Part shown: positions 56,124 to 58,441 of the stretch, in pieces
Numbering within the stretch: the first letter of the stretch is position 1
How the letters are laid out: each line of letters begins with the position of its first letter
Assembly: GCA_965199355.1 (NCBI GenBank)
Contig: CBDARB010000011.1
Location: forward strand, 148,588 to 212,587
Origin: Kordiimonas sp.
GTDB lineage: Bacteria > Pseudomonadota > Alphaproteobacteria > Sphingomonadales > Kordiimonadaceae
Length of the DNA: 64,000 nucleotides
Reading direction: 5' to 3'
Made by a program: the position numbers and the translations under genes
Notes under the pieces: model-generated
Told to the model about the DNA's origin: nothing
Seen by the model: only the letters and a program-made list of their open reading frames with translations
Databases searched by the model: none

Positions 56124-56650
56124 TCAGAATTTGAATTTGAGGTTGAGCTTGGTTTCGTCAACACTTTGAAACGAATTCTCATCGTCACCGCGCCGATATT
56201 CTATTCCGAACGAAGTCGAGCTTGAGCCCGAGTTCAGTAGCCCGATCTCCGCGCCTGCTGTGAAGATAGATTGGTCTTCAACGCGACTTAATATTTCGGC
56301 AAGGTAACGATAGGACGCGCTGAGTTTGAACTTTTTCCATGATAGTGACATGCCCACTTTAGCGCCCAGTCCAAGATATTCTGATGGGTTATTATTGCCA
56401 GCGTTCGCTGACCTAGCCAGCAGAAAATTGGGATTGGTACCTACTTTGTCGATGAACGAACCTTCAAGAATGGTTTGAAAACTTGAGTTTAGCGTCAGGG
56501 CGCCAATTTTGTCGCCTTCAAAGGCATCACCAAAGATACCGTAATGGGGCTTGGCACGTCCTGCTCCGTTTCGGCTTGTCGTGACGGTGGATAGGAAGGG
56601 GGTGTCGTTGCTCCTGATGCAGTAAGCTGTATCTACGGCGTCGCGCCATG
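56124..56650 (-). pseudogene. 3' fragment of an IS-interrupted secreted/outer-membrane protein gene
   Basis: Continues in frame from the 5' fragment once the IS is removed; amphipathic strands and terminal ...KLNLKFKF. Confidence 0.8.
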
Positions 56651-56689
56651 AGGCCTGCGCCATTTTATCAATCAAAAAGGAACAACAAC

Positions 56690-57724
56690 ATGACTGTATT
56701 TATAGGACTAGACGTCTCTCTGGCAAGCACGGCAGTCTGTGTACTGACGGGTAAGGGTGAGATTCTCAGGGAGGCAAAGGTGCCCAGCGAGCCGGCAGCG
56801 CTTGTGGGTTTTGTGCACAGCCTGGGGTGCGATGTCGCCAGCATTGGTCTTGAAGCAGGGCCCCTGTCCCAGTGGTTGTACAAGGGCCTGACGGAAGCGG
56901 GTTTCGAGACGGTGCTGATGGAAACACGCAGAGTGAAGGCCGCGCTGAAGGCCATGCCGATCAAAACAGATCGCCGGGATGCGGAAGGGATTGCCCGCCT
57001 GCTGCATCTGGGCTGGTTCCGGCCAGTCCACTGCAAATCCGTTTCGTCGCAGGAGATACGGGCGCTGCTGACGACCCGCCATGCCATCCAGAAGGCCCTG
57101 AAGGCTCTCGAACTGTCGGTGCGGGGTATCCTGCGCAATTTCGGTCTGAAGATGGGCAAGGTGTCGAAGGGGCGGTACGCGGCACGGGTGCGCGAGCTTG
57201 TGACCGGCAACCCTATGCTGGAAGCTGCCGTCGAGCCTGTCCTGCACGTGCGCGACACGCTGCGCAAGGAGATGGCAGGTCTGGAGAAAAAGATTAAAGG
57301 GCTGGCGACGGCGAACCCGGTCTGTGACCTGTTAATGACCATGCCCGGTGTAGGGCCGGTCGTGTCGCTGACCTTCCTGTCCGCAGTGGATGATCCCGGG
57401 CAGTTCCGCCGATCGAAGGATATCGGTCCATGGGTGGGGCTAACGCCGGGCCGGGACCAGTCGGGGGAACGGGATGTTACCGGCCGCATCACGAAGGCTG
57501 GCGATGTCGGCCTGCGAACCGCCCTGTATCAGGCGGCGACGGTCATGCTGAACGGGGGCAGATCCAACTGGCTGAAAGCCTGGGCGTTGCGTCTTGCTGC
57601 CCTGCGGGGCAAGAAACGTGCAACGGTCGCCCTTGCCCGACGCATCGGTGTGGTGCTGCACCGGATGATGGTGGACGCAACGGTGTTCTGCTTCACCCGC
57701 GAAGAGGCTGTCCGCTCTGTATAA
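56690..57724 (+). CDS. IS110 family transposase/recombinase
   Basis: DEDD RuvC-like residues in FIGLDVS, GLEAG and KTDRRDA; C-terminal TMPGVG and WVGLTP..DQSGE (Ser motif). ATG 56690 follows AAAAGGA. Confidence 0.96.
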   Translation: MTVFIGLDVSLASTAVCVLTGKGEILREAKVPSEPAALVGFVHSLGCDVASIGLEAGPLSQWLYKGLTEAGFETVLMETRRVKAALKAMPIKTDRRDAEGIARLLHLGWFRPVHCKSVSSQEIRALLTTRHAIQKALKALELSVRGILRNFGLKMGKVSKGRYAARVRELVTGNPMLEAAVEPVLHVRDTLRKEMAGLEKKIKGLATANPVCDLLMTMPGVGPVVSLTFLSAVDDPGQFRRSKDIGPWVGLTPGRDQSGERDVTGRITKAGDVGLRTALYQAATVMLNGGRSNWLKAWALRLAALRGKKRATVALARRIGVVLHRMMVDATVFCFTREEAVRSV

Positions 57725-57789
57725 ACCCGTTCAAGCAGCGTACGAGAAGAAACAGGAGGTTTGGCCGCGTCTGACAGGGGTCGGCCACC

Positions 57790-58010
57790 AGTGTCCCTGC
57801 CGGGACGCAGTCCCCGATGATGCACGCAGGATGCCTTGTCGCCGGACCCCGCACATATGTAGCGCAGGGTTCGAGCACGCCCCAAAGATAGGCACTCGGG
57901 AACTGTATTGGACAAGGTATGAAGTTGGCGGCCCTTGCCCTGCATGGCGCCGACCACGGACGGAAGCACGTACCCGGCGGTGATACAGGAAGGTGACCTG
58001 ACTCCAGAAG
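57790..58010 (+). ncRNA. Putative bridge/seek RNA in the IS110 right end (boundaries approximate)
   Basis: Contains AGGATGCCT matching the target flank, ATGGCGC and ACGGAAG matching the two IS ends, and several hand-identified hairpins. Confidence 0.6.
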
Positions 58011-58441
58011 GCAAAGGCAACGATCCACACAGTCAAAATCCAGGCTTTCCCCCTGTATACAGGGACGCCGACAAGACCCTCTCCCGTGAACCGTCAACCG
58101 TGTCGCGCCGGCTAATTGTGTGATAAAGGTGCTTGACATCAACTGCCCCATTACGGAAGCACGCCCCAAAGATAGGCACTCGGGAACTGTATTGGACAAG
58201 GTATGAAGTTGGCGGCCCTTGCCCTGCATGGCGCCGACCACGGACGGAAGCACGTACCCGGCGGTGATACAGGAAGGTGACCTGACTCCAGAAGGCAAAG
58301 GCAACGATCCACACAGTCAAAATCCAGGCTTTCCCCCTGTATACAGGGACGCCGACAAGACCCTCTCCCGTGAACCGTCAACCGTGTCGCGCCGGCTAAT
58401 TGTGTGATAAAGGTGCTTGACATCAACTGCCCCATTACGGA
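57874..58441. repeat. Perfect 284-bp tandem duplication of the IS right end
   Basis: 57874-58157 equals 58158-58441 by eye; the ORF track shows identical ORFs offset by 284 (57935 vs 58219). Confidence 0.95.

What the first reader, a model, noticed from the sequence alone, without database searches (positions are those of the whole stretch)
57810..57870. Putative target guide: a 9-nt match to the element's own insertion site
Seen: AGGATGCCT (57828-57836) is the exact reverse complement of the target half AGGCATCCT (58442-58450), i.e. 7 nt of flank plus the 2-nt core, and is followed by a GTC-GCCG-GAC mini-hairpin. A uniform-base estimate of chance occurrence in 435 nt on both strands is about 870/4^9, or 0.3%. 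The partner guide for the other half (CGCCATGAG) is not clean; the best candidate is ATGTAG at 57857-57862. Inference: this is the target-binding loop of a bridge/seek RNA, so the system would be a reprogrammable recombinase.
Basis: partly seen in the sequence, partly recalled or inferred. Interest (0 to 1): 0.78.

Follow-up and report, generated by a model that had tools for sequence, protein, structure and literature searches.

The report
IS1111-type bridge RNA target guide
The 9-base match is real: it is the right-hand target guide of the guide ("bridge" or "seek") RNA carried by an IS1111-type jumping gene, a mechanism first described in 2024, so this is a cleanly decoded but ordinary new example.

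Summary
Observation confirmed. AGGATGCCT (57828-57836) is the exact reverse complement of core AG plus right flank GCATCCT (58442-58450).

Interpretation supported. The element is an IS110-family, IS1111-group insertion sequence with 29 full copies in this genome. The consensus of its 29 insertion sites is CCCCAA|AG|GCATCCT.

In 50 homologous elements from other genomes, these two blocks are the hypervariable parts of a conserved two-loop RNA scaffold, and they track each element's own flanks (0 of 20,000 permutations). Two further segments covary with the element's own ends: GGUAU (57916-57920) and ACGGAAG (57960-57966).

Three details were wrong:
- The left end lies at 56536, not about 56651.
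- The proposed left half (CGCCATGAG) and partner guide (ATGTAG) are therefore not real.
- The "mini-hairpin" is part of a longer conserved hairpin.

RNA expression could not be tested. The scan has already decoded similar IS1111 guide RNAs in other genomes. This is a new member of a known kind.

Side observation: 15 kinds of right-end-proximal tandem partial duplications all start right after an internal AG.

The parts
56530..56535 (+). Left target half CCAA plus core AG (56534-56535) at the left junction
   Evidence: 29 copies diverge to the left of this point. Position -1 is A in 29/29, -2 is A in 26/29, and -3 to -5 are C in 17-18/29.
56536..58441 (+). The insertion sequence in this window. 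It carries an internal 284-nt tandem duplication. The single-unit form is 56536-58157, 1622 nt, plus the AG core.
   Evidence: BLAST against the own genome finds 29 full copies at 99.9-100% identity. A collapsed repeat contig spanning 56533-58159 appears in independent DNA runs.
56539..56550 (+). Left subterminal inverted repeat, CCGTAATGGGGC
   Evidence: Perfect 12-nt inverted repeat with 58145-58156 and 58429-58440 (pairs I8 and I9). The same repeat is present in homologues.
56690..57724 (+). Recombinase (transposase) gene, 344 aa
   Evidence: Pfam PF01548 (DEDD_Tnp_IS110) and PF02371. D8, E55, D94, D97 and the GL-P----SG motif are invariant in 23 homologues.
57788..57966 (+). Predicted bridge/seek RNA gene (approximate limits), with a target-binding loop and a donor-binding loop
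   Evidence: Conserved scaffold in 37 aligned homologues. 97.3% of cells are paired, 12 pairs show changes on both sides, and 0 of 500 shuffles reach the observed values. Many G-U pairs fit only the + strand.
57808..57825 (+). 5' arm of the stem that closes the target-binding loop. It pairs with 57891-57905.
   Evidence: Helices 3-5 include 8 pairs with compensatory changes.
57828..57836 (+). Right-target guide (the finding): AGGAUGCCU, complementary to the top strand of core AG plus GCATCCT
   Evidence: Exact complement of 58442-58450. It matches the 29-site logo. The homologous block covaries with the right flank in 50 elements.
57838..57878 (+). Inner hairpin of the target-binding loop.
   Evidence: A hairpin of the same geometry folds in nearly all 37 homologues despite different sequence.
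57880..57890 (+). Left-target guide CCCCAAAG (57880-57887), same sense as left flank plus core and so pairing with the bottom strand. It is followed by AUA. CCAAAGATA (57882-57890) is identical to the left junction 56530-56538.
   Evidence: The 4-6 nt before the conserved AGAT covary with the left flank: 4.30 of 6 for own flank against 1.56 for others, 0 of 20,000 permutations.
57891..57905 (+). 3' arm of the stem that closes the target-binding loop
57916..57920 (+). Right-donor guide GGUAU, complementary to the first bases of the element, ATACC (56536-56540)
   Evidence: The RNA base (C or U) follows the left-end base (G or A) in 42 of 43 elements, plus one G-U wobble.
57927..57955 (+). Inner hairpin of the donor-binding loop (57927-57932 paired with 57949-57955)
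   Evidence: Helix 6: 99.1% paired, 3 pairs with changes on both sides.
57960..57966 (+). Left-donor guide ACGGAAG, identical to the last 5 bases of the element plus core AG
   Evidence: The variable base x in the right end TTACxGAAG equals x in the RNA's ACxGAAG in 43 of 43 elements (G 9, C 25, A 9).
57874..58441 (+). Two tandem 284-nt units (57874-58157 and 58158-58441). The second unit adds a copy of the left-target guide, the donor loop and the right end.
   Evidence: (family D1). The repeated unit begins right after the internal AG at 57874-57875, so the new sequence after the AAG junction starts at 57876.
58429..58443 (+). Right subterminal inverted repeat (58429-58440), the terminal A, and core AG (58442-58443)
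58444..58450 (+). Right target half GCATCCT (host DNA)
   Evidence: Logo of 29 right flanks: G 24, C 22, A 22, T 23, C 17, C 16, T 19 of 29.

Best explanation
Window 56536-58441 is an IS110-family, IS1111-group insertion sequence. Its 435-nt non-coding region downstream of the recombinase gene encodes a bridge (seek) RNA of about 180 nt, at roughly 57788-57966.

The finding's segment, AGGAUGCCU at 57828-57836, is the 5' strand of the RNA's target-binding internal loop. [quoted passage not shown] Both strands overlap on the core.

A second loop reads the element's own joined ends. GGUAU (57916-57920) pairs with the start of the left end. [quoted passage not shown]

The DEDD recombinase bound to this RNA would align a circular copy of the element with a CCCCAA-AG-GCATCCT-like site and exchange strands at AG.

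Shown here: the sequence matches, the 29-site target logo, guide/flank and guide/end covariation across homologues, and a covariation-supported RNA fold.

Inferred from published work on relatives: that the region is transcribed, that the RNA is bound by the recombinase, and that it is required for and can reprogram insertion.
For: - Exact 9-nt (extendable to 10-nt) complementarity.
- 29 independent insertions give the logo CCCCAA|AG|GCATCCT. Matches to the guides average 4.93 of 7 and 4.07 of 6. Random AG sites in the genome give 1.75 and 1.62.
- 50 homologous elements (recombinase 52-74% identical) have the same end architecture.
- In their aligned non-coding regions, the two guide blocks are the hypervariable parts of a conserved scaffold and match each element's own flanks. 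0 of 20,000 permutations reach the observed values for either block.
- The stems that close the loop show compensatory changes and + strand-only G-U pairs.
- Donor guides covary perfectly with the element's ends.
- The guide order, with the top-strand match 5' of the bottom-strand match and the RNA downstream of the gene, is the order reported for IS1111-family seekRNAs (PMC11187229).
- All 15 distinct internal recombination junctions lie right after an AG. This confirms AG as the crossover core.
- The recombinase has both Pfam domains and the catalytic and SG motifs.
Against: - No RNA data. The public runs that hold the element are DNA assemblies, so transcription, RNA ends and protein binding are untested.
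- No sigma-70-like promoter was found in the element.
- No Rfam family matches.
- No empty target site was recovered. That the target holds a single AG is therefore inferred from the internal junctions, not seen directly.
- A few homologues do not match their flanks: L031, L100, L104 and L072 (the last with a doubtful end call).
- The natural target is short and tolerant. 4 of 29 right flanks match only 1 of 7 positions, so pairing is not the only determinant.
Confidence: 0.9

Rival explanations
1. The 9-nt match is a coincidence, and the segment has no role in targeting.
For: A single 9-mer match on its own is only about 0.3-0.4% unlikely in 435 nt.
Against: The consensus of 29 sites equals the guide's complement position by position. 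The homologous block in 50 other elements follows their own, different flanks, with 0 of 20,000 permutations reaching the observed value.
Confidence: 0.01
2. The guide acts as single-stranded DNA of the element itself, as in IS200/IS605-type end-guided targeting, and not as an RNA.
For: No transcript evidence is available here. G-T pairs are also tolerated in DNA hairpins.
Against: For IS110/IS1111 relatives, the guide was shown to be an RNA that co-purifies with the recombinase and works in trans (PMC11187229; PMC11208160). The recombinase here has the same two domains. The conserved multi-helix scaffold with many G-U pairs is typical of a structured RNA.
Confidence: 0.03
3. The segment mainly serves excision rather than choice of new sites. 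It would recognise the flanks of the integrated copy and bring the ends together into the circle.
For: The 10-nt match includes the last base of the element (I17). CCAAAGATA equals the left junction, including three bases of the element. Published work shows that the target-derived flanks are needed for circle formation (PMC11187229).
Against: This complements target selection and does not replace it. The 29-site logo shows that the same bases constrain where new copies land.
Confidence: 0.05

Closest known systems
IS1111-family insertion sequences with a seekRNA (ISEc11, ISPa11, ISKpn4, ISPst6; Siddiquee et al. 2024, PMC11187229)
   Same: DEDD recombinase of about 340 aa. 12-bp subterminal inverted repeats with asymmetric terminal extensions (6-7 nt left, 3 nt right). 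Long non-coding region downstream of the gene. A short top-strand-complementary segment lies 5' of a bottom-strand-complementary segment, and the two overlap at the insertion point.
   Different: A different clade: the best database protein is 81% identical and most are below 75%. The core and target differ (AG; CCCCAA|AG|GCATCCT). The target is short, degenerate and mostly unique chromosomal sequence, not a repeat. No RNA or transposition data exist for this element.
IS621 bridge RNA (IS110 group; Durrant et al. 2024, PMC11208160; Hiraizumi et al. 2024, PMC11208158)
   Same: Two internal loops, one for the target and one for the donor (the joined ends). Each loop reads one DNA strand on each side of a shared core dinucleotide. 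Guide/DNA covariation is seen across orthologues.
   Different: The RNA lies 3' of the gene, not 5'. In both loops the strand order is reversed: here the 5' side reads the top strand, whereas in IS621 the 5' side reads the bottom strand. The core is AG, not CT. The subterminal repeats are long. The right-donor guide shows no core pairing.
ISPpu9 and its Ssr9 module in Pseudomonas putida (PMC12288879)
   Same: An IS110-family element whose 3' RNA module occurs in extra copies apart from the recombinase gene. Circles were reported that contain the gene alone, the gene plus the RNA, or the RNA alone. Here there are 57 exact RNA-gene copies against 29 recombinase genes.
   Different: Here the extra copies are tandem, right-end-anchored partial units attached to full copies, not dispersed modules. 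Ssr9 was reported as not required for transposition.

Membership tests
IS110 family, IS1111 group | DEDD (RuvC-like) recombinase N-terminal domain | tested here: met
   PF01548, E 4e-13, above the curated cut-off. D8, E55, D94 and D97 are invariant in 23 homologues.
IS110 family, IS1111 group | C-terminal PF02371 domain with the GL-P----S(T)G motif | tested here: met
   PF02371, E 6e-23. G250, L251, P253, S258 and G259 are invariant. The motif is as defined in PMC11187229.
IS110 family, IS1111 group | Subterminal inverted repeats of about 11-13 bp with asymmetric terminal extensions (6-7 bp left, 3 bp right) | tested here: met
   A perfect 12-bp repeat at 56539-56550 and 58145-58156. The constant bases outside it are AAGATA or AAAGATA on the left and AAG on the right.
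IS110 family, IS1111 group | The longer non-coding region lies downstream of the recombinase gene | tested here: met
   435 nt downstream against 154 nt upstream.
IS110 family, IS1111 group | Site-specific insertion with no target duplication beyond the shared core | tested here: inconclusive
   A clear target logo comes from 29 sites, and AG (AAG) is present at both junctions. No empty site was found to show that the target holds a single copy. All 15 of 15 internal junctions fall at AG, which supports a shared core.
seekRNA / bridge RNA | Non-coding RNA segments complementary to both strands of the target, overlapping at the insertion point, and covarying with the target | tested here: met
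seekRNA / bridge RNA | A second loop complementary to the element's own ends (the donor) | tested here: met
   The right-end base equals the RNA base in 43 of 43 elements. The left-end base is complementary in 42 of 43, plus one wobble.
seekRNA / bridge RNA | The RNA is expressed, binds the recombinase and is required for transposition | not testable with these tools
   Only DNA assemblies hold the element.
seekRNA / bridge RNA | Circular intermediate with a right end-core-left end junction | tested here: inconclusive
   The assembly holds no right end-AG-left end junction. One run of another organism label has a closed 1301-nt contig spanning 56857-58157. This could be a circle or a tandem array.

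The most novel reading that the evidence does not exclude
The recombinase recombines the element's right end (left-donor half plus core) with guide-unmatched AG sites inside sister copies. This would create right-end-anchored tandem partial units and long arrays. The arrays double the copy number of the guide-RNA gene relative to the recombinase gene (57 against 29). They would be a natural genomic record of half-site, off-target bridge recombination, and possibly of selfish amplification of the RNA module. Two unrelated relatives, L043 and L086, show the same scar.
Probability: 0.5. Interest if true: 0.55.

Novelty: new member of a known kind. Interest (0 to 1): 0.3.

Why it matters
For the finding itself, it matters little beyond annotation. 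It shows that sequence alone can decode all four guides (both target halves and both donor halves), the AG core and the true ends of an uncharacterised IS1111-type element.

It also adds a clade to the RNA-guided recombinases, found mostly in Rhodobacterales and other Alphaproteobacteria. The clade has about 50 naturally reprogrammed guide/target pairs and a short, tolerant target.

The 29 near-identical copies, which are absent from 30 related genomes, record a recent burst of insertions that knocked out host genes.

The right-end-anchored tandem duplications at AG sites may inform current questions about excision and off-target activity of bridge recombinases.

Tried and rejected
- Rfam 15 at E up to 1 across the element gave no family.
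- A single-sequence fold of the non-coding region was no better than shuffles (z = 0.04). Structure had to come from the alignment.
- The promoter and terminator scan gave nothing useful.
- RNA evidence was not obtainable. Both run searches returned only Logan contigs of genomic DNA, and laying them gave copy-number-like depth and repeat-collapsed contigs with no transcripts.
- Empty-site search failed. The interrupted host gene has no orthologue in 31 genomes of the genus. The repeat targeted by the short-tailed clade was not found uninterrupted in the fetched loci.
- I considered that the four bases after the left-donor guide (CACG) select the 284-nt duplication site. Only 2 of the 3 AGCACG sites in the element are among the 15 used AG sites of 92. 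My estimate is p of about 0.07, so the idea stays unsupported.
- I checked for a hybrid promoter across a circle junction. A perfect TTGACA lies 21 nt from the right end, but I found no convincing -10 hexamer in the left end by eye.
- The preprint on half-match recombination listed could not be opened.

Full report
**1. The observation.** AGGATGCCT lies at 57828-57836. Its reverse complement AGGCATCCT lies at 58442-58450. The repeat finder extends the complementarity to 10 nt (pair I17). The 9-mer is expected 0.6 times in the 64-kb window on both strands.

**2. True limits of the element.** The own genome holds 29 full copies at 99.9-100% identity.

- Left ends: all copies stay identical leftward to window 56530-56533, then diverge. 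The constant part begins with AAGATA followed by CCGTAATGGGGC.
- Right ends: 75 right ends finish with GCCCCATTACGG-AAG.
- Junctions in the window: the left junction is CACCAA|AG|ATACCG, with the core at 56534-56535. The right junction is ...TTACGGA|AG|GCATCCT, with the core at 58442-58443.
- Inverted repeat: a perfect 12-bp subterminal repeat lies at 56539-56550 and at 58145-58156 and 58429-58440.

Its 'other target half' CGCCATGAG is therefore element sequence present in every copy. The window's copy also carries a 284-nt tandem duplication of its right end (57874-58157 and 58158-58441).

The recombinase gene (56690-57724, 344 aa) has Pfam PF01548 and PF02371. The DEDD residues and the GL-P----SG motif are invariant among homologues. 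The non-coding parts are 154 nt upstream and 435 nt downstream. These are the defining features of the IS1111 group of the IS110 family as set out in PMC11187229.

**3. What the 29 insertions say.** The flanks give the logo CCCCAA|AG|GCATCCT.

| Side | Position and count out of 29 |
|---|---|
| Right | G 24, C 22, A 22, T 23, C 17, C 16, T 19 |
| Left | -1 A 29, -2 A 26, -3 to -5 C 17-18 |

The left half plus core is spelled, in the same sense, by CCCCAAAG at 57880-57887. In addition, CCAAAGATA at 57882-57890 is identical to the left junction 56530-56538.

Matches to these two predicted half-sites average 4.93 of 7 and 4.07 of 6. Random AG sites in the genome give 1.75 and 1.62.

- A scan of genome contigs returned 80 loci with recombinases 52-74% identical, mostly Rhodobacterales and other Alphaproteobacteria.
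- They share the end architecture flank|AG|AT(G/A)CCGTAA...TTAC(G/A/C)GA|AG|flank, but their flanks differ.
- In the aligned downstream regions, a conserved scaffold carries two hypervariable blocks.
- The first block follows GAUGAUGC(A)CG and is homologous to 57828-57836. Its reverse complement reproduces core plus own right flank. Examples are L034, L035, L055, L081 and L088 at 7 of 7. L032 and L037 also reach 7 of 7 once a one-column alignment shift is read correctly.
- The second block is the 4-6 nt just before a conserved AGAU. It reproduces the own left flank, for example 6 of 6 in L039, L045, L046 and L075.
- Over 33 distinct guide pairs, own-flank matches are 5.21 of 7 and 4.30 of 6, against 2.12 and 1.56 for other elements' flanks. 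0 of 20,000 permutations reach the observed values for either block.
- Exceptions are L031, L100 and L104. L043 and L086 looked discordant only because their first right end is followed by an internal duplication. Their outer flanks match 6 of 7.

So homologues do not keep the 9-mer. They rewrite it to fit their targets.

**5. The RNA.** RNAalifold on 37 homologues gives the following elements:

- a 5' hairpin (57793-57797 with 57802-57806);
- a long stem that closes the target loop (57808-57825 with 57891-57905);
- a hairpin in the second loop (57927-57932 with 57949-57955).

On this structure, 97.3% of cells pair and 12 pairs change on both sides. Every measure exceeds all 500 shuffles and all slid controls. 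Many pairs are G-U, which would be A-C on the other strand, so the RNA is read from the + strand.

Between the two target guides, every homologue folds an inner hairpin of different sequence.

The target loop therefore has AGGAUGCCU on its 5' strand and CCCCAAAG on its 3' strand.

The second loop reads the element itself:

- GGUAU (57916-57920) is complementary to the first bases ATACC. It switches to GGCAU wherever the left end is ATGCC (42 of 43, plus one wobble).
- ACGGAAG (57960-57966) equals the right end plus core. Its variable base equals that of the right end in 43 of 43 elements (G 9, C 25, A 9).

**6. Mechanism.** This is a two-loop bridge RNA. The order of guides is top-strand reader 5' and bottom-strand reader 3'. 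That is the order reported for IS1111 seekRNAs. [quoted passage not shown]

The most likely working is as published for relatives. The RNA-bound DEDD recombinase pairs the circular element's joined ends with a CCCCAA-AG-GCATCCT-like site and exchanges strands at AG.

The AG core is supported independently. The genome holds 15 distinct junctions in which a right end is followed by internal element sequence. In all 15, the internal sequence begins right after an AG, although AG occupies only 5.7% of positions.

Transcription, protein binding and programmability are inferred, not shown. The only public runs with the element are DNA assemblies. Rfam has no matching family.

**7. Comparison and novelty.** The element passes the sequence-level membership tests for the IS1111 group and for a seek/bridge RNA. 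It is a new member. The best database protein is 81% identical. The element was not found in 30 related genomes. Its GC content is 0.60 against 0.52 for the genome, which suggests recent acquisition and a burst of insertions.

Its target is short, tolerant and mostly unique sequence, which fits 29 scattered insertions. The scan has already decoded several IS1111-type guide RNAs in other genomes, so the finding is ordinary in kind.

**8. Side observation.** The right-end-anchored partial units include arrays of alternating 1110-nt and 584-nt units at the end of contig 14 and the start of contig 5. They raise the number of exact guide-RNA genes to 57, against 29 recombinase gene starts and 75 right ends.

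The internal sites resemble the target only weakly. The events therefore look like recombination of the right-end half-site with any AG. The same scar occurs in L043 and L086. The nearest published parallel is the modular circles of ISPpu9.

Noticed in passing
Own genome, e.g. C14:523049-530883, C5:1-7646, C16:330706-333316, C1:187262-189564; window 57874-58441: There are 15 distinct kinds of tandem partial duplication. Each runs from an internal position to the right end, and each begins right after an internal AG. The internal start positions are 56859, 57053, 57236, 57300, 57579, 57707, 57830, 57876, 57892, 57917, 57967, 58008, 58033, 58044 and 58063. Arrays of alternating 1110-nt and 584-nt units reach two contig ends. 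The genome holds 57 exact guide-RNA genes against 29 recombinase gene starts and 75 right ends.
   Followed up: partly
L043 (about 456 and 597 nt after the stop codon) and L086 (about 438 and 893 nt after the stop codon): Two unrelated homologous elements in other genomes also carry a second right end. The sequence after the first right end is internal element sequence that follows an AG. The duplication scar is therefore a family trait and not an artefact of this assembly.
   Followed up: partly
Window 56857-58157, in run X5 (another organism label): A 1331-nt contig closes on itself across the joint 58157->56857, at depth 8.5. The left part of the element has depth 0-2.5. This is either a tandem array or a free circle of the partial unit in another sample.
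   Followed up: no
Window 56124-56535 plus 58444-59807, minus strand: Rejoining the host gene at the true ends gives an open frame of 591 aa. It ends in ...LNLKFKF, which looks like an outer-membrane beta-barrel. No orthologue was found in 31 genomes of the genus.
   Followed up: partly
Window 57967-58144: About 180 nt lie between the guide RNA and the right inverted repeat, with no assigned function. The stretch contains the palindrome CCCTGTATACAGGG (58051-58064) and a perfect TTGACA hexamer (58133-58138) 21 nt from the right end, facing outward.
   Followed up: no
Loci L049-L103 (short-tailed clade): About 20 related elements from different Rhodobacterales and rhizobia all sit in the same sequence, CAA(T/C)G|AG|TCCTGA(C/G)CCTAG. 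This looks like a conserved repeat or the end of another mobile element. Their guides match it.
   Followed up: no
L068, about 307 and 398 nt after the stop codon: Two right ends lie 91 nt apart. Each is followed by the same target-like sequence, TCCTGACCCTA. This may be a solo right-end remnant next to a full copy.
   Followed up: no
Whole genome: The element was not found in 18 genomes of the same genus or 12 of the same order. Its closest relatives are in Alphaproteobacteria, and its GC content is 0.60 against 0.52 for the genome. This points to recent horizontal acquisition followed by expansion.
   Followed up: partly
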